From Coriobacteriales bacterium (lineage in GTDB: Bacteria > Actinomycetota > Coriobacteriia > Coriobacteriales > UBA8131): a stretch of 36,594 nt of DNA. The stretch covers positions 1-36,594 of the forward strand of contig JAISGJ010000070.1 in the NCBI GenBank assembly GCA_031263105.1. Reading direction: 5' to 3'. The notes beneath the pieces were generated by a model that ran no database searches, was not told the origin of the DNA, and was given only the letters and a program-made list of their open reading frames with translations. Numbering within the stretch: position 1 is the stretch's first letter; each line of letters starts with the position of its first letter. Below are positions 6,220 through 16,562 of the stretch, in pieces. Position numbers and translations under genes: made by a program.

Positions 6220-7104
6220 ATGACCGTAGACACAGACGAGCTTGCTGAGTACTATGCCAGCACCCAGCCGTCTTTGTGCGACGCGTATGGAGGGGTCGTG
6301 CCGCCAAGGACGGATTTTTCTGACCCTATCACCAGTCCGGTGGGCAGTGGGCTTGTCATACCGCTGCTCGGCAGGGCGCACTATGTGCTCGATGGGGTGC
6401 CTTACGAGCTTAAGCCGGGGGTCGTCCTGCACGCTGGGGCTGCCATGAGCCTGGAGAAGCGGGTTGTGGGTGACGAGGCATGGGCCTGCGTCCTGGTGCA
6501 CTACCGCATCCCCACAGCCGACGAGGGCGGCTTTCCTCTCTACAACTCGCACTTCTGCATCGAGACCGGTCCTGCCATCCGCTTGCAGGAGAGGGCACGA
6601 TGCCTCCACACGAGCGAACGTGCCGACGGGCATCTGGCGTCGTTGCGGTCGCGGGCCCTGTTCGCCGATCTGATCGGGGAGGTGGTGTCGGCGGCGCAGC
6701 GTCACGGCCAGACCGACGAGAGGCTGCTCATGGACGATGCCCTCGCCTTCTTGGGCAGTCACTATGCGGAGGATATAAGCGTCCAGCGGCTCGCGGCCCT
6801 CTACGGGATGAGCGCCAGGCACTTCGGCTACCTGTTCTCCAAGCACGTCGGGGTGTCCCCGCTGCGCCATCTCACCGACCTGCGCATACGCCAGGCCAAG
6901 GAACTGCTCGCCACGGGCCTGTACAGCGTGGGGCAGGTCGCCCAAAGTGTCGGCATCAATGACAGCTACTATTTCAGCCGGCTGTTCAAAAAGCATACGG
7001 GCGAGCGGCCAAAGGCCTTCAAGGAGCTTCGGATGCGCACAGGGCACGGTGGAGATGCAAAGCACGGTGGGCACGGTGGGCACGCAGGGCACGGCGAGCG
7101 CTAA
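6220..7104 (+). CDS. AraC-family transcriptional regulator with His/Gly-rich C-terminal tail
   Basis: N-terminal cupin-like region and AraC double HTH (LAALYGMSARHFGYLFSKHVGVSP...VAQSVGINDSYYFSRLFKKHTG). GGAG precedes ATG 6220; ATG 6142 overlaps the operator-like site. Confidence 0.92.
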   Translation: MTVDTDELAEYYASTQPSLCDAYGGVVPPRTDFSDPITSPVGSGLVIPLLGRAHYVLDGVPYELKPGVVLHAGAAMSLEKRVVGDEAWACVLVHYRIPTADEGGFPLYNSHFCIETGPAIRLQERARCLHTSERADGHLASLRSRALFADLIGEVVSAAQRHGQTDERLLMDDALAFLGSHYAEDISVQRLAALYGMSARHFGYLFSKHVGVSPLRHLTDLRIRQAKELLATGLYSVGQVAQSVGINDSYYFSRLFKKHTGERPKAFKELRMRTGHGGDAKHGGHGGHAGHGER

Positions 7105-7220
7105 GAACGCGAAAACGTCCATTCTCTGCGGGAATCCGTCCATTTACATAACGCCAGCTTCTTACTACACTGCCCTTACCCCGACCCATAGTCATACAAA
7201 CGTGACTCTTGTGCCATAGG

Positions 7221-7236
7221 GTTAGATAACTCTAAC
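7221..7236. promoter_or_regulatory. Dyad GTTAGA-TAAC-TCTAAC upstream of the transporter operon, possible operator
   Basis: Perfect 6-bp inverted repeat sharing GTTAG/CTAAC half-sites with the 6120 site, just upstream of the RBS of 7258. Confidence 0.4.
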
Positions 7237-7257
7237 AAAGGAAAGACGAGGGATCGA

Positions 7258-8295
7258 ATGAGTCGTTTTATCAGAGGTATGCTGGCTGCCCTGCTCGCGG
7301 CAGGGATGCTGGTGGGCTGCGCTGCGCCTTCGGAGCCTTCGGAGCAGGAGCCGCAGAAGCAAACGGCAGACGAGGGGCAGGCGACCGACCGGGCGGCGGC
7401 GCAAACGACGGCTGACGAGCAGACGCAGGAGGATGCGGCGGAGGATGCGACCGCCTGGCCACGCACCTATGTGGACGGGCTTGACAGAGAGGTTGTCATC
7501 GAGGCCAGACCCGAGCGCATCGTTGCGCTGCACTTCGGCTACTCGGAGTACCTGCTGGCACTCGGCATCACGCCCGTCGGCGTGGCGTCGCTGGCAAAGG
7601 CCCAGACCTTCAAGACCCTGGAGCCCTACAGCGCCGAGCTTGCGGCCGCCGTCGACGTGGGCGAGGTCACCGCCCCCGACCTGGAACGCATCCTGGCCCT
7701 GGAGCCCGACCTCATCATCGCGAGCCCGGGCGTGCACGACGATTCCGTAGAGGCGCTTTCGGAGATTGCGCCCACGGTCTTTAAGAAGAACTACACCGTT
7801 TGGAACGAGACCTTGGACGATTACGCACAGATGCTCGGACGCGAGAGCGAGGCGGAAAGCTACACCGAGAGCACCCAGGCAATCCTGGACACGGTTCGCG
7901 CCGACCTTGCCCCCCTCTCGGACAAGACCTTCCTCTTCCTGCGCCCGATGGGCAAATCCGTCTTCTATATCGCGGAATGGCCCGGCTACAGCTACCACTA
8001 CGACCGCGAAACGGGCTTTGGCCTGCTCGCGCCCGAGGGACTGCCGCAGGGCGGGGAACAGATAGCTCTTGAGGCCTTGGCCGCCCTTAACCCCGACTAC
8101 CTCTTCTTGCAGGACAGCGCCGAGAACGACCAGCAGGCCCTCACGGATCTGGAGTCCTCAAGCGTGTGGGCCTCCATCGCCGCCGTGCAGCAGGGCCACA
8201 TAGGCGAGTTGGATATCTCGGTGAACACCGAAAGCCCGCTGGCCGTCCGCCTGGCGGCCGAGCAGCTCACCGAGCAGGTCGAGGGCTGGGATTGA
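7258..8295 (+). CDS. Fe-siderophore/cobalamin-type ABC substrate-binding lipoprotein (FeuA/FhuD-like)
   Basis: Lipobox LVGC; PERIVAL, LLALGITPVGV, PDLERILALEPDLII, LSEIAPT and SSVWASIAAVQQGHI motifs. Confidence 0.92.
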   Translation: MSRFIRGMLAALLAAGMLVGCAAPSEPSEQEPQKQTADEGQATDRAAAQTTADEQTQEDAAEDATAWPRTYVDGLDREVVIEARPERIVALHFGYSEYLLALGITPVGVASLAKAQTFKTLEPYSAELAAAVDVGEVTAPDLERILALEPDLIIASPGVHDDSVEALSEIAPTVFKKNYTVWNETLDDYAQMLGRESEAESYTESTQAILDTVRADLAPLSDKTFLFLRPMGKSVFYIAEWPGYSYHYDRETGFGLLAPEGLPQGGEQIALEALAALNPDYLFLQDSAENDQQALTDLESSSVWASIAAVQQGHIGELDISVNTESPLAVRLAAEQLTEQVEGWD

Positions 8296-14623: not shown

Positions 14624-15642
14624 AGAAACTGAGCGTTATCGTAGTGGCCCTGTTGCTGGCCTTCGGTCTGGCTGCCTGTGCGCAGGCTCCGGGAGAAAGC
14701 CCCGAGGCCGATGCCGACGGCGGAGCCAGCGGCGGCGGCGGCGCGGCCACTGACGTTGCCGACGGCACGGCCGACGGCAACGCGGCCGCCGAGGAGCAGG
14801 GCCTCTGGCCGTGCACCGTCACGGACGCCCTTGGCAGAGAGGTCGTCATCGAGCAGGCGCCCCAGAAGCCTGCCCTGATATTCTTCCGCAACTTCGAGCA
14901 CATGTTCGCGCTGGACGTGCCGCCCTACGCGGCGACCGACGTCTCGGACGTCTACAAGGGCTGGGCGTCGCTGGCGCCCTTCGCCGCCACCCACGAGATA
15001 ATCGACCTGGGAGACATGAACGCGCCCAACCTCGAGAAGCTCCTCGAGGTCGCCCCGGACCTCATCATCGTCTATTCGGGCGTCTATGAGGAGATAGGCG
15101 ACGACCTCGACAAGATGGCGACCACCGTCGCCGTGAGCAACTACGGCGACGACTGGCAGACGCCGCTTAAGGAGTACGGCAAGATGCTGGGCAAGGAGGA
15201 CGCAGCCGAAGAGGAAATCGAGCGTCTCAGCACTCTTCTGAAGGAAGGCGGCCAGGAGCTTGCCGCCCTTGGAGACAAGACCGTGGCCTGCGTCGCCCTG
15301 CAAAGCGCCAAGGAGTTCCTGGTCTACAATGTGGAGTCCGTCTACAGCAAGGATGCGGGCCTGGGACTCACGCCGCCTGCGGGCTTTGTCGAGAAAAGCC
15401 GCGAGACCATCAGCCTTGAGGGATTGGCGGAATTCAACCCGGACTATCTGCTCGTCTACGACAACATGACCAACACGGCCGACGAGGACCTCATCGCGGA
15501 GCTCTCAGGCAGCGCCGTATGGAACTCGCTGAGCGCGGTGCAGGGCGACAACGTGCACCTGATAGACCGCTCCGCTTTCTCCGGCGGCCCCCTGTCCATA
15601 GAATACGGCACCGAGGCCATCCGCACGGCCCTCCTCGGCTGA
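14620..15642 (+). CDS. Second Fe-chelate-type ABC substrate-binding lipoprotein
   Basis: Lipobox [29 protein letters not shown] and [16 protein letters not shown] motifs; ATGA overlap with the upstream stop. Confidence 0.92.
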
Positions 15643-15650
15643 ACGCGTTC

Positions 15651-15694
15651 GCCGGGAGCGCATGGCGCGTTGTGCCGCACCACGCGCTCCTGGC
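15651..15694. other. Imperfect 19-bp stem-loop between the binding-protein gene and nifH
   Basis: GCCGGGAGCGCATGGCGCG / CGCACCACGCGCTCCTGGC with 3 non-Watson-Crick positions; no U-tract. Confidence 0.45.
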
Positions 15695-15743
15695 ATGGAC
15701 GGTCAAAAGCAAGGCCGGACACTCCATTGAAAGAGACATGCCC

Positions 15744-16562
15744 ATGAGACAGATAGCCATATACGGAAAAGGCGGCATCGGCAAGTCCACCACCACCCAG
15801 AACCTCGCGGCAGCGCTGGGGGAGATGGGCAAGAAGGTCATGATCGTCGGCTGCGACCCCAAGGCGGACTCGACCCGTCTGGTGCTCGGAGGACTGGCCC
15901 AAAAGACCGTTCTGGACACCCTGCGCGAGGAGGGCGAGGCCATCGAACTCGATGCGGTGCTCAAAGAGGGCTTCGTTGGCATCAGGGGCGTCGAGTCGGG
16001 CGGCCCGGAGCCGGGCGTAGGCTGTGCGGGGCGCGGCATCATCACCTCCATCGACCTTTTGGAGCGCCTCGGCGCCTATGAGGAGGACTTGGACTACGTG
16101 CTCTACGACGTCTTGGGCGACGTCGTCTGCGGCGGTTTTGCCATGCCCATCCGCGCAGGCAGGGCCCGAGAGATCTACATCGTCTGCTCGGGAGAGATGA
16201 TGGCGCTGTATGCGGCGAACAACATCTCCAAGTGCATCGCAAAGTACGCAAACACAGGCGGCGTGCGCCTGGGCGGCCTCATATGCAACTCCCGCCAGGT
16301 GGACGGTGAGGCCAGCCTCGTCCGCACCGTCGCCGCCGAGATCGGCACCCGGATGATCCATTTCGTCCCGCGCGACAACGCGGTGCAACGGGCCGAGGTC
16401 AACAAGAAGACGGTCATCGAGTTCTCCCCCGAGGAGGCACAGGCAGACGAGTACCGCACCTTGGCGCACAAGATAGACGGCAACGACCTCTTCATCACCC
16501 CCAAGCCCATGTCAAACGACCGACTTGAGGAGATCCTGATGGCGCATCACATTCGACCCTAG
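15744..16562 (+). CDS. nifH: Nitrogenase iron protein-like ATP-dependent reductase (NifH family)
   Basis: [42 protein letters not shown] and [14 protein letters not shown], with both 4Fe-4S Cys present. Alternative ATG at 15738. Confidence 0.95.

What the first reader, a model, noticed from the sequence alone, without database searches (positions are those of the whole stretch)
6220..16562. Nitrogenase-like reductase (NifH + two mini component-1 subunits) embedded in an Fe-chelate ABC uptake operon
Seen: co-directional genes with many overlapping stop/start junctions: araC, SBP1, exporter-fold ABC, FecCD x2, FecE, D-like, K-like, SBP2, nifH. The nif-like genes are interleaved with transporter genes, since SBP2 lies between them. 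No nifB/E/N, bch/chl, cfb or siderophore synthesis genes are in the window. Established: nitrogenase-like systems (DPOR/COR, CfbCD, MarHDK) use ATP to deliver low-potential electrons, and ferric siderophores need low-potential reduction or hydrolysis to release iron. Inference: a dedicated import-and-reduce system in which the nitrogenase-like enzyme strips metal from, or reductively modifies, an imported siderophore, metallophore or tetrapyrrole. I know of no characterised function for this arrangement.
Basis: partly seen in the sequence, partly recalled or inferred. Interest (0 to 1): 0.9.

Follow-up and report, generated by a model that had tools for sequence, protein, structure and literature searches.

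The report
Iron-chelate importer with truncated nitrogenase-like reductase
A termite-gut bacterium carries an apparently iron-regulated operon that joins a siderophore-type importer to two shortened nitrogenase-like proteins and an ordinary nitrogenase iron protein, a derived form of a widespread but uncharacterised gene set that probably frees iron from an imported chelate.

Summary
Pfam confirms AraC, SBP1, an MsbA-like ABC protein, FecC, FecD, FecE, two component-1-like genes, SBP2 and nifH, with six start/stop overlaps.

The link between this component-1 clade and a FecBCDE-type importer holds in 35 of 38 loci from other genomes. It also holds in a full-length paralogous operon on another contig of the same assembly. 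Dos Santos et al. 2012 noted the association but no function was assigned.

- **Truncated subunits:** D (231 aa) and K (268 aa) lack domain III. They form long-diverged monophyletic clades of four sequences each, so they are not recent decay.
- **Foreign reductase:** nifH is a canonical nitrogenase iron protein, not the clade's own reductase. Its 88% ortholog in a relative heads nifH-D-K-E-N.
- **Iron-uptake signals:** DtxR-like boxes precede both AraC genes. Some Bacillota loci have Fur-like boxes. Both SBPs resemble siderophore binders.

Best reading is import followed by ATP-driven reduction of a ferric chelate. No experiment or structure prediction supports it. I class it as a new variant of a known, uncharacterised kind.

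The parts
6125..6143 (.). DtxR/IdeR-like operator candidate upstream of AraC
   Evidence: It has 5 mismatches to a 19-nt consensus that I recalled from memory. Only 8 sites in the whole 2.9 Mb assembly reach 5 or fewer mismatches, and a second of them lies 34 nt upstream of the AraC gene of the paralogous operon on C221. A DtxR-family gene is present on C233.
6220..7104 (+). AraC-family regulator (ORF opens at 6142; the ATG at 6220 is the likelier start)
   Evidence: Pfam HTH_18 1.4e-19 and HTH_AraC 7.2e-16. 67% identical to the AraC of the C221 operon. An AraC gene is present in 33 of 38 related loci.
7258..8295 (+). SBP1, lipoprotein substrate-binding protein of a type II ABC importer
   Evidence: Peripla_BP_2 2.6e-31; lipobox LVGC read from the translation. 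Best solved relatives are siderophore binders: iron-uptake protein 2why, FhuD, HtsA, SirA, YclQ. 50-53% identical to the second SBP of two-SBP operons L058, L077, L078.
8292..10064 (+). MsbA-like exporter-fold ABC half-transporter
   Evidence: ABC_membrane 1.8e-46 plus ABC_tran 1.9e-34. MsbA model 447 bits, below its cut-off of 602. The TTG start overlaps the SBP1 stop. The same gene occupies the same slot in C221 (63% identical), in Pelosinus loci L061, L067, L069 (cut in L066) and in L073.
10061..11152 (+). FecC-like permease
   Evidence: FecCD 9.5e-92; 67-73% identical to Bacillota loci.
11152..12204 (+). FecD-like permease
   Evidence: FecCD 2.8e-92; start refined; 67-74% identical to Bacillota loci.
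12332..13144 (+). FecE-like ATPase
   Evidence: ABC_tran 8.8e-31. NF008409 FecE 298 bits, below its cut-off of 375.
13138..13833 (+). mini-D: truncated NifD/E-like subunit (231 aa; domain I and the start of domain II)
   Evidence: Oxidored_nitro positions 1-143 of 399. GTG start behind an AAGGAG site. On the numbering of the 236-aa ORF from 13123 it keeps Cys28 (HCP), Cys53, Cys105 and Cys130, and all 21 family-invariant columns. It ends just before the family's LNLV strand. Monophyletic with three other mini-D proteins, support 99. GC3 0.78. The Atlas model has pTM 0.69 with component-1 structural neighbours.
13817..14623 (+). mini-K: truncated NifK/N/BchB-like subunit (268 aa; domains I-II)
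   Evidence: Oxidored_nitro positions 7-223 of 399. ATG behind AAGGAG; it keeps the family N-terminus MxLYxxxPxxSxRM. Aligns to NifE residues 80-267 and NifD residues 103-300. Monophyletic with P0002, P0003 and P0012, support 100. GC3 0.76.
14620..15642 (+). SBP2, second lipoprotein substrate-binding protein
   Evidence: Peripla_BP_2 1.6e-19; signal peptide with lipobox LAAC. Best solved relatives are siderophore binders. 53-57% identical to the first SBP of two-SBP operons L057, L058, L062, L077, L078.
15744..16562 (+). canonical nifH (nitrogenase iron protein)
   Evidence: TIGR01287 439 bits, above its cut-off of 394. 80-87% identical to 119 listed NifH proteins. Best solved chain 1cp2, 438 bits. 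Only 52% identical to the clade's own reductase H221. The 88% ortholog in relative G021 heads nifH-D-K-E-N. DNA similarity to relatives is confined to 15730-16542.
16545..16619 (+). 27-bp perfect inverted repeat (hairpin) starting in the last codons of nifH
   Evidence: Sequence read; the self-match is shown. RNA fold -54.5 kcal/mol, z = -8.4, and none of 200 shuffles folds as well. It is unique in the assembly.

Best explanation
The window holds an apparently iron-repressed, AraC-controlled operon for taking up a ferric chelate and reducing it inside the cell.

Proposed steps (all inferred unless marked):
1. Two surface lipoproteins (SBP1, SBP2) capture a siderophore-like iron complex.
2. A type II ABC importer (FecC/FecD permeases, FecE ATPase) brings it in.
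3. NifH hydrolyses ATP and delivers low-potential electrons to a [4Fe-4S] cluster held mainly by three cysteines of mini-D, at its interface with mini-K.
4. That cluster reduces the bound Fe(III) complex so that Fe(II) is released.
5. The MsbA-like protein may export the emptied ligand for re-use.

The window is a derived member of a widespread operon family (AraC, one or two SBPs, FecC, FecD, FecE, then NflH-NflD-NflK). Here D and K have lost domain III, and the clade's own reductase has been replaced by a captured canonical nifH.

Shown: gene content, conserved linkage, truncation and its age, the identity of nifH, operator-like boxes, and SBP resemblance to siderophore binders.

Inferred: the substrate class, the cluster, the D-K and NifH-DK contacts, co-transcription of nifH, and the reaction.
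For: **Linkage**
- Of 38 loci found with the D-like alignment, all 38 have D and K, 37 have H, 35 have both FecCD permeases, 34 have FecE, 35 have an SBP and 33 have AraC. No other conserved accessory gene appears.
- Contig C221 of the same assembly has AraC, SBP, MsbA-like ABC, FecC, FecD, FecE, full-length D, K and H in that order.

**Iron control**
- Only 8 sites in the 2.9 Mb assembly lie within 5 mismatches of the DtxR/IdeR consensus. Two sit directly upstream of the two AraC genes.
- A DtxR-family gene is present.
- Of 11 Fur-box matches with 3 or fewer mismatches in the 38 loci, 9 lie within about 115 nt upstream of AraC or between AraC and the SBP.

**Substrate class**
- Both SBPs match solved siderophore binders best. 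No heme-binding protein appears at E <= 1e-3.
- No riboswitch was found in the window, C221 or 5 loci.
- No SIP or FhuF reductase was found in the 86%-complete assembly, although it has 16 FecCD matches over the cut-off.

**Mini subunits are maintained**
- The mini-K and mini-D clades are monophyletic (support 100 and 99), with internal path lengths of 1.4-2.5 changes per column.
- All family-invariant columns are kept.
- Indels in a second strain are in frame.
- Codon GC pattern is coding-like, and both genes have AAGGAG sites with coupled starts.

**nifH belongs to the operon**
- Similarity to relatives starts only 14 nt before its ATG.
- No promoter-like or terminator-like site is predicted in the 101-nt gap.
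- A strong hairpin follows its stop codon.
- The SBP2-nifH junction is kept in a second strain.
- In C221 the reductase gene also lies 3' of D-K.
Against: - No expression, binding or activity data exist. No RNA run was available.
- Loss of domain III removes much of what forms the substrate cavity in solved relatives (general knowledge). The minis also sit on long stem branches (1.12 and 2.10) and are only 38-47% identical to full-length relatives, while the transporter proteins are 65-74% identical. That also fits relaxed or changed function.
- nifH could simply be what is left of a broken nif cluster.
- Fur-like boxes were found in only 9 of 38 loci, representing 5 lineages. Both operator consensus sequences were recalled from memory.
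- The K family scores best against BchB and BchZ models and the clade's H against CfbC. Those are tetrapyrrole enzymes.
- Linkage has exceptions. L053 has AraC-H-D-K without a transporter. Family relative G442 has H-D-K with no transporter hit within 13.7 kb upstream.
- C221 has lower G+C (61.4% against 65.6%) in a bin with 6.5% contamination, so it may not come from the same cell.
Confidence: 0.4

Rival explanations
1. The operon now works only as a chelate importer. Mini-D and mini-K are non-catalytic leftovers, or have some small scaffold or regulatory role, and nifH is a stranded remnant of a lost nif cluster with no functional tie to them.
For: - Both subunits lack domain III.
- They are far more diverged than the transporter proteins, 38-47% against 65-74% identity, and sit on long stem branches.
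- nifI, nifD, nifK, nifE and nifN of the relative have no orthologs in this assembly.
- The clade's own reductase type is missing from the window.
- Only four sequences of each mini type turned up in very large protein searches.
Against: - Four mini-D and four mini-K sequences share the same truncation points across about 50% sequence divergence, with no internal stops.
- All invariant columns and the cluster cysteines are kept.
- Indels in a second strain are in frame.
- Starts are translationally coupled and preceded by AAGGAG.
- nifH is intact and 87-88% identical to orthologs. It lost its native upstream region but kept its ribosome-binding stretch.
Confidence: 0.25
2. The family reduces an imported tetrapyrrole, most plausibly heme taken as an iron source. 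It would saturate or open the ring system so that iron can leave, by analogy with DPOR, COR and CfbCD, which all reduce tetrapyrroles with a single interface [4Fe-4S] cluster.
For: - D has three cysteines at the P-cluster positions and K has no conserved cysteine, as in DPOR (Dos Santos 2012).
- The K family scores best on BchB (85 bits) and also on BchZ. The clade's H scores best on CfbC.
- No NifB ortholog was found with the relative's nif-cluster ORFs as queries.
- Type II ABC importers of this Pfam family also carry heme and corrinoids (general knowledge).
- Iron-repressor boxes fit heme used as an iron source.
Against: - The SBPs match siderophore binders. No solved heme binder appears at E <= 1e-3. 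The IsdE model gives only 24-30 bits against a cut-off of 299.
- There is no cobalamin riboswitch.
- No tetrapyrrole-pathway or radical SAM gene is conserved in the loci.
- All NCBIfam hits to Bch and Cfb models are far below their cut-offs.
Confidence: 0.2
3. The nitrogenase-like proteins are a scaffold that assembles a metal cofactor from the imported metal, as Dos Santos et al. suggested in 2012.
For: NifEN, the closest named model for D (NifE), is a scaffold. The suggestion is in print.
Against: No candidate recipient enzyme or maturase is conserved in the 38 loci. The importer parts are of the chelate type, not the free-metal type. Iron-repressor boxes fit acquisition better than cofactor building.
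Confidence: 0.07

Closest known systems
Uncharacterised NifH plus NifEN-like genes behind an ABC ATPase gene (Clostridium botulinum CLM_0808/0809, Alkaliphilus oremlandii Clos_0313/0314; Dos Santos et al. 2012, PMC3464626)
   Same: Same protein family. The mini-D and mini-K clades nest inside the family that includes the C. botulinum, C. sporogenes and Pelosinus loci. D carries the three P-cluster-position cysteines and K has no conserved cysteine. They sit in one operon with a FecBCDE-type importer and AraC.
   Different: Here D and K are cut to 231 and 268 aa from about 400-430 aa. The clade's own ~250-aa reductase is replaced by a canonical 272-aa NifH. The gene order is D-K-SBP2-H rather than H-D-K.
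DPOR (BchL/BchNB), COR (BchX/BchYZ) and CfbCD
   Same: An ATP-driven NifH-type reductase paired with a component-1 homolog. The cysteine pattern points to a single interface [4Fe-4S] cluster bound by three cysteines plus a non-cysteine or variable ligand. There are no FeMo-cofactor ligands and no NifB.
   Different: All Bch and Cfb model scores are far below their cut-offs. There are no pigment or F430 pathway genes. The context is import and iron regulation. The window's subunits lack domain III.
Mo-nitrogenase NifHDK
   Same: The window's nifH is a true ortholog of nif-cluster nifH: above the TIGR01287 cut-off, and 88% identical to the gene heading nifH-D-K-E-N in a family relative.
   Different: No nifD, nifK, nifE or nifN ortholog was found in the assembly. 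The neighbouring D and K homologs lack the cofactor-binding domain and three of the six P-cluster cysteines.
Ferric-siderophore reductases FhuF and SIP (ViuB/YqjH type)
   Same: The same proposed physiological step: reductive release of iron from an imported siderophore. Family names are recalled; two papers were seen as search listings only.
   Different: No sequence relationship. Those enzymes use a 2Fe-2S cluster or flavin and no ATP. Neither family was found in this assembly.
Siderophore ABC importers under AraC-type regulators (Feu/Btr, Fhu and Fec systems)
   Same: Peripla_BP_2 lipoproteins, two FecCD permeases and one ATPase. The AraC gene's best NCBIfam hit is the Btr model, but at 79 bits against a cut-off of 900.
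   Different: No known system of this kind includes nitrogenase-family genes. No equivalog cut-off is met for any transporter part.

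Membership tests
Nitrogenase component 1 (NifDK/VnfDK/AnfDK) | Six P-cluster cysteines, three in each subunit | tested here: not met
   Mini-D has cysteines at the three positions (Cys28, 53, 130). Mini-K has only one, and that column varies across the family. 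The third position is an invariant serine. Mapping to NifD and NifK numbering is from recalled motifs plus Dos Santos 2012.
Nitrogenase component 1 (NifDK/VnfDK/AnfDK) | FeMo-cofactor ligands in domains II/III, and NifB/NifEN maturation genes | tested here: not met
   Domain III is absent from both proteins (Pfam positions 1-143 and 7-223 of 399). No nifE, nifN or nifB-region ortholog was found in the assembly by tblastn with a relative's cluster. The assembly is 86% complete.
Nitrogenase iron protein NifH | Score above the curated equivalog cut-off | tested here: met
   TIGR01287 439 bits against a cut-off of 394.35. Best solved chains are nitrogenase iron proteins at 357-438 bits.
Nitrogenase iron protein NifH | Walker A motif and the two cluster cysteines | tested here: met
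   [16 protein letters not shown] and VVCGGFAMP were read in the translation. The motif identities are recalled.
Nitrogenase iron protein NifH | Orthologs head true nif clusters | tested here: met
   In G021 the 88% ortholog is followed by nifD (N2-ase-I alpha model 577 against a cut-off of 486), nifK, nifE (593 against 505) and nifN. In the window itself no such genes follow.
Transporter-linked NifHEN-like clade (Dos Santos 2012) | Phylogenetic placement of D and K inside the clade | tested here: met
   With NifD/K/E/N as outgroups in both trees and K113 as an added outgroup in the K tree, mini-K and mini-D fall inside the family (supports 97-100). These were quick-search trees, and long branches were flagged.
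Transporter-linked NifHEN-like clade (Dos Santos 2012) | Operon with a FecBCDE-type importer and AraC | tested here: met
   Present in the window, in C221 and in 35 of 38 loci.
Transporter-linked NifHEN-like clade (Dos Santos 2012) | Full-length three-domain D and K (about 400-430 aa) | tested here: not met
   231 and 268 aa. The alignments end before the family's domain III.
Transporter-linked NifHEN-like clade (Dos Santos 2012) | Cognate ~250-aa reductase of the clade's own type | tested here: not met
   All 37 reductases in the loci score higher with H221 (323-409 bits) than with the window's NifH (224-275 bits). The window's NifH is 52% identical to H221.
DPOR / COR / CfbCD | Score above the curated cut-offs for BchN/B, BchY/Z or CfbD | tested here: not met
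   Mini-K scores 50 bits on BchB (cut-off 490) and 20 bits on CfbD (cut-off 268). Mini-D has no such hit.
Group IV nitrogenase-like systems (Mar, Isr, Nfa) | Six P-cluster cysteines in most groups, a NifB/MarB maturase, and sulfur-metabolism neighbours | tested here: not met
   Features taken from PMC13474568 and PMC13753814. Here there are 3 plus 0-1 cysteines, no maturase gene and no sulfur genes among the conserved neighbours.
Group VI nitrogenase-like systems | Reductase about 40% identical to NifH, and many radical SAM neighbours | tested here: not met
   Features taken. The clade's H is 58-59% identical to the window's NifH in its best BLAST matches among the related loci. No radical SAM family is conserved in the loci.
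Type II ABC importer for iron chelates (Fec/Fhu/Feu type) | Two FecCD permeases, an ABC ATPase and Peripla_BP_2 binding protein(s) | tested here: met
   Pfam. No NCBIfam equivalog cut-off is reached, so the ligand cannot be named.
Ferric-siderophore reductases (SIP, FhuF) | SIP or FhuF domain | tested here: not met
   PF04954 and PF06276 gave no match in the assembly. The proposed role is by analogy only.

The most novel reading that the evidence does not exclude
A canonical nitrogenase iron protein has been captured by an iron-starvation operon to drive a pared-down, two-subunit NifDK relative that has lost its whole third domain. The result would be a minimal ATP-powered low-potential reductase that strips iron from imported ferric siderophores. 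The full-length family found across Clostridia, Negativicutes, termite spirochaetes and a methanogen-related archaeon would then be a previously unrecognised, nitrogenase-derived route of anaerobic iron acquisition.
Probability: 0.25. Interest if true: 0.85.

Novelty: new variant of a known kind. Interest (0 to 1): 0.68.

Why it matters
A 2026 review calls finding the functions of the many uncharacterised nitrogenase-like systems one of the field's greatest challenges. It says genome context has helped little beyond hints of sulfur and tetrapyrrole metabolism.

This clade has an unusually clear context: a self-contained module of regulator, chelate importer and reductase. Iron-repressor-like boxes occur in two unrelated regulatory forms (DtxR-like here, Fur-like in some Bacillota), and the binding proteins are of the siderophore type. 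That gives a simple, testable function, ATP-driven reductive iron release, for which no nitrogenase relative is known.

The window adds two natural experiments:
- a form that works, if it works, without domain III;
- a swap of the clade's own reductase for a true NifH.

Both bear on what the minimal partner of NifH is, and on how readily Fe proteins change partners.

Tried and rejected
**DNA of the other mini-bearing contigs**
- A metagenome scan with the mini-K alignment matched 133 pattern stretches, none a relative. The neighbours of P0002/P0008, P0003/P0009, P0010 and P0012 therefore remain unseen.
No dN/dS could be computed.

The D alignment A3 worked.

**Expression**
- No RNA holder was listed for the stretch.

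**Structure**
- The Atlas did not hold mini-K.
- D-K pairing, cluster geometry and NifH docking were therefore not examined.

**RNA families**
- Rfam gave no family at gathering score in the window, C221 or five loci. The first try was over the size limit.

**Earlier notes of this scan**
- Nothing for this genome or for the mini-K sequence.

**Literature searches with nothing on this arrangement**
- 'nitrogenase-like' with ABC transporter and periplasmic binding protein: 0 papers.
- With siderophore and NflH.
- With Clostridium, iron uptake and Fur.
- Nitrogenase with iron ABC transporter, AraC and C. sporogenes.
- With iron acquisition, heme and anaerobic.
- Locus tags CLM_0808 and Clos_0313: only Dos Santos 2012.
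- Ferric siderophore reductase: only FhuF and SIP work.

**Passages read and found irrelevant**
- PMC3933689, PMC9147875, PMC9431491.

**Readings rejected**
- Nitrogen fixation by these genes: ligands and domain are missing.
- Group VI or Group IV membership: see the membership tests.
- A split gene with domain III encoded elsewhere: only six PF00148 matches in the assembly, all accounted for.
- SBP2 as a cytoplasmic stand-in for the lost domain: it has a lipoprotein signal peptide.
- ORF 16565-17209 as a gene: GC3 of 0.51 and no family.

Full report
**1. What is there**

Pfam and NCBIfam confirm ten co-directional genes. In order they are AraC, a lipoprotein binding protein (SBP1), an MsbA-like exporter-fold ABC half-transporter, two FecCD permeases, a FecE-like ATPase, two genes with the nitrogenase component-1 domain, a second lipoprotein binding protein (SBP2) and nifH.

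I refined the start sites from ribosome-binding sites and family N-termini. The genes are then packed with overlaps of 4, 4, 1, 7, 17 and 4 nt. Only three gaps remain: AraC-SBP1 153 nt, FecD-FecE 127 nt and SBP2-nifH 101 nt.

The codon-position G+C of every gene, including the two small ones (GC3 0.78 and 0.76), is coding-like and host-like. The 214-codon ORF after nifH is not (GC3 0.51).

The flanks are chromosomal housekeeping genes: htpG on one side; ftsK, pgsA, cinA, recX and pntAB on the other.

An independently built contig from the probable source run, a termite gut metagenome, spans 12300-17455 with one difference. Pieces of a roughly 93-95% identical strain from a second sample of the same study bridge the D/K, K/SBP2 and SBP2/nifH junctions. 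That strain's indels in mini-D (12 nt) and in the SBP2 signal peptide (3 nt) are in frame. The arrangement is therefore not an assembly artefact.

**2. The family it belongs to**

An exhaustive profile search with the K-like protein found 931 proteins at E <= 0.001 and 39 at E <= 1e-30. Nearly all the best hits are about 400 aa.

A scan of one genome per species with the D-like alignment returned 38 loci. By their record titles they come from Clostridium sporogenes, C. botulinum, C. tetanomorphum, Pelosinus, Sedimentibacter, Tissierella, Faecalispora, Paenibacillaceae, a termite Treponema and Candidatus Methanoplasma glyptotermitis.

I annotated these loci with the window's proteins as queries and clustered all ORFs. 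The core gene counts were:

| Gene | Loci with it (of 38) |
|---|---|
| D | 38 |
| K | 38 |
| H | 37 |
| Both FecCD permeases | 35 |
| An SBP | 35 |
| FecE | 34 |
| AraC | 33 |

The usual order is AraC, one or two SBPs, FecC, FecD, FecE, H, D, K. The only other recurrent clusters are antisense shadows of these genes.

The three loci without permeases are two short contigs (L044, L066) and one real exception. That exception is L053, a second copy in a genome that also has a complete operon.

Two family relatives of the window's genome have H-D-K of this type without a transporter hit. G442 has none within 13.7 kb upstream, and G014 is on a 3.2-kb contig.

Contig C221 of the same assembly carries AraC, SBP, MsbA-like ABC, FecC, FecD, FecE, full-length D, full-length K and H. 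Its K groups with the termite Treponema copy (support 98). C221 has lower G+C (61.4% against 65.6%) and the bin has 6.5% contamination. Its origin in the same cell is therefore likely but not certain.

**3. What is in print**

Dos Santos et al. 2012 (passages read) describe NifEN-like genes downstream of NifH and an ABC ATPase gene in C. botulinum and Alkaliphilus oremlandii. They report three P-cluster cysteines in the NifE-like subunit and none in the NifN-like one. They note co-location with ABC transporters and suggest coupling of metal transport to cofactor assembly. This matches the family here.

I read section 2.4 and further passages of a 2026 review and passages of a 2026 paper on methylthio-alkane reductases. 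Both list Groups IV-A to IV-F, V and VI. They associate Group IV with sulfur genes and Group VI with radical SAM and tetrapyrrole genes. Neither mentions an iron-chelate importer link in the passages my term searches returned.

Seven full-text searches found no functional study of this arrangement. I did not see supplementary files. The neighbourhood figures in the additional files of Dos Santos 2012 may show more. North et al. 2020 is not in the library and is cited from recall only.

I treated it as a lead and tested it (section 6).

**4. The two small subunits**

Mini-D (231 aa) covers Pfam positions 1-143 of 399. Mini-K (268 aa) covers positions 7-223. Mini-K aligns to NifE residues 80-267 and NifD residues 103-300.

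Against 22 full-length D proteins, mini-D stops exactly before the family's conserved LNLV strand. Mini-K stops after the FGTP...G block, about 65% of the way along. Both keep their N-termini. Mini-K starts with the family's MxLYxxxPxxSxRM once the ATG at 13817 behind AAGGAG is used. No remainder can hide in another frame, because the next gene starts within each stop codon region.

Only six PF00148 matches exist in the assembly, so no separate domain III is encoded elsewhere.

Mini-D keeps all 21 invariant columns of the D alignment, including Cys53 and Cys130. It also keeps Cys105 and the HCP cysteine (Cys28), which is present in 24 of the 24 rows that reach that column. By recalled Azotobacter NifD motifs, Cys28, Cys53 and Cys130 correspond to Cys62, Cys88 and Cys154. 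The 203-aa start chosen by gene callers would drop Cys28.

Mini-K keeps the eight invariant columns of the K alignment. In all four mini-K sequences a cysteine stands in the LEYGC motif, a column that varies in full-length members. The position that I map to NifK Cys153 is an invariant serine.

Very large searches found only three other mini-K proteins (87%, about 50% and about 50% identical) and three other mini-D proteins (89-94%, 54% and 51%). Matching contig lengths (8674 and 5865) suggest that D and K sit together on two of those contigs.

In trees rooted with NifD/K/E/N of a relative, the four mini-K sequences form one clade (support 100, stem 1.12). The four mini-D sequences form another (support 99, stem 2.10). 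Both lie inside the family, with internal paths of 1.4-2.5 changes per column. These were quick searches, and long branches were flagged.

This points to one old truncation of both genes, followed by long maintenance without stops, which is not decay. The long stems and the low identity to full-length relatives fit a changed or loosened constraint: 38-47% for the minis against 65-74% for FecC, FecD and FecE in the same loci.

The Atlas holds mini-D with a model of pTM 0.69 and pLDDT 0.69, whose structural neighbours are component-1 proteins.

**5. The nifH is a canonical one**

- It passes the curated nifH cut-off, 439 against 394 bits.
- It is 80-87% identical to the 119 best database NifH proteins. 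Those that carry names come from Oscillospiraceae, Lachnospiraceae, Clostridia, Desulfovibrio, Pectinatus and Sporobacter termitidis.
- It matches solved nitrogenase iron proteins at 357-438 bits, the best being 1cp2.
- It is only 52% identical to H221 and 54% to the reductase of the third system on C113. All 37 reductases in the related loci score higher with H221 than with it. The clade's H scores below both the CfbC and the NifH cut-offs.

In the same taxonomic family, 7 of 33 other genomes have a 68-88% identical ortholog. In G021 the 88% ortholog is followed by two small ORFs, then nifD, nifK, nifE, nifN, a 2Fe-2S ferredoxin and an AnfO-like gene. None of those genes has an ortholog in this 86%-complete assembly.

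DNA similarity to the relatives is limited to 15730-16542. It begins 14 nt before the ATG and ends 20 nt before the stop. The last six residues differ from all close NifH proteins, but the length is kept.

Those last codons form the left arm of a 27-bp perfect inverted repeat (16545-16571 and 16593-16619). It folds at -54.5 kcal/mol with z = -8.4.

No promoter-like or terminator-like site is predicted between SBP2 and nifH. This is a weak consensus scan.

In C221, the reductase gene also follows D-K. In the Treponema locus no H gene precedes D, and that contig ends inside K.

I read this as displacement of the clade's own 3' reductase gene by a promoter-less canonical nifH, together with SBP2, while the rest of the nif cluster was lost or moved. 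That nifH serves mini-D/K is an inference.

**6. Clues to function**

*Regulation.* Using a DtxR/IdeR consensus recalled from memory, only 8 sites in the assembly have 5 or fewer mismatches. One lies at 6125-6143, about 95 nt before the likely AraC start. One lies 34 nt before the AraC ORF of C221. Two more precede other ABC-transport operons. With perhaps 300 nt of target sequence in 2.9 Mb, two of eight sites falling there by chance is very unlikely. A DtxR-family gene is present.

Using a recalled Fur consensus, 11 sites in the 38 loci have 3 or fewer mismatches. Nine of them lie just upstream of AraC or between AraC and the SBP. They fall in nine loci from five lineages: four Pelosinus loci, L045/L046, L055, L072 and L075. 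The other 29 loci show none at that stringency.

*Ligand class.* Both SBPs match solved siderophore binders best: 2why at 64-69 bits, then FhuD, HtsA, SirA, YclQ, YfiY and Fe-citrate YfmC. BtuF appears only weakly, for SBP1. No heme binder appears. No riboswitch is present.

SBP1 and SBP2 are 50-57% identical to the tandem SBP pair of the Sedimentibacter-type operons. The window therefore has the full two-SBP set in a rearranged order.

*Missing alternatives.* No SIP or FhuF domain was found in the assembly, although it has 16 FecCD matches over the cut-off.

*Exporter-fold ABC.* This gene lies inside the operon here, in C221, in the Pelosinus loci and in L073. Export of the emptied ligand, or import as in exporter-fold siderophore importers (recalled), are both possible.

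*Enzyme type.* The evidence is three cysteines on one subunit, no conserved cysteine on the other, no maturase gene, best model hits to BchB/BchZ and NifE, and CfbC-like H. This points to a single interface [4Fe-4S] cluster, as in the tetrapyrrole-reducing relatives. That keeps a heme or tetrapyrrole substrate alive as a rival.

**7. Verdict**

It now rests on conserved linkage, iron-repressor-like boxes and siderophore-type binding proteins, but it remains untested.

The family and its ABC association were already noted in 2012. What the window adds is a long-lived truncated D/K pair and the capture of a true nifH.

Confidence in the full mechanism for this window is about 0.4. The main rival is that the minis and nifH no longer take part in chemistry on the imported ligand (0.25). 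A tetrapyrrole substrate follows (0.2).

Noticed in passing
G000 contig C113 (locus L042), about 1000-9584: A third nitrogenase-like set lies on the minus strand: AraC, unassigned ORFs, a PIN-domain ORF, then H (passes the nifH cut-off, 405 against 394), a D-like protein (N2-ase-I alpha model 156 bits, far below its cut-off) and a K-like protein. It belongs to a different clade from the window's genes and has no transporter on the contig.
   Followed up: partly
window 16545-16619: A 27-bp perfect inverted repeat whose left arm is the 3' end of nifH. The loop holds a short direct repeat. It is unique in the assembly. It may be a terminator or stabiliser, or a scar of the rearrangement that separated nifH from nifDK.
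   Followed up: partly
G000, whole assembly: The 2.9 Mb assembly has 16 FecCD permease matches over the cut-off but no SIP or FhuF match. That is a heavy investment in chelate import.
   Followed up: no
L041 (C221), L076 (Treponema), L071 (Methanoplasma glyptotermitis): Three termite-gut organisms from different phyla carry the full-length operon. The C221 K protein is sister to the Treponema one (support 98). This suggests exchange within the termite gut.
   Followed up: no
window 21520-25612: G+C drops to 55-58% around 22-24 kb. Three ORFs of 300-513 codons (21520-22680, 22694-23596, 24071-25612) have no Pfam family. This may be a small foreign island between ftsK and the miaB-like gene.
   Followed up: no
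G000 C68:3139, C230:13239: Two more of the eight DtxR-like sites lie just upstream of an ABC ATPase gene (C68) and of another AraC gene that is followed downstream by an ABC ATPase gene (C230). These hint at a small DtxR regulon of transport operons.
   Followed up: partly
L045 about 231-4889; L050, L056 flanks: Pairs of exporter-fold ABC genes lie beside the operon in three Bacillota loci. In L045 a Fur-like box with 2 mismatches lies at position 231, about 1 kb upstream of the first ORF of the pair.
   Followed up: no
Atlas neighbours of mini-D: Clusters of 160-188-aa proteins with the component-1 domain, each with 60-122 members, were listed from Spirochaetota, Myxococcota and Methanobacteriota. 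They may be contig-end fragments or further short forms. Scores were under 0.9, so this is a lead only.
   Followed up: no
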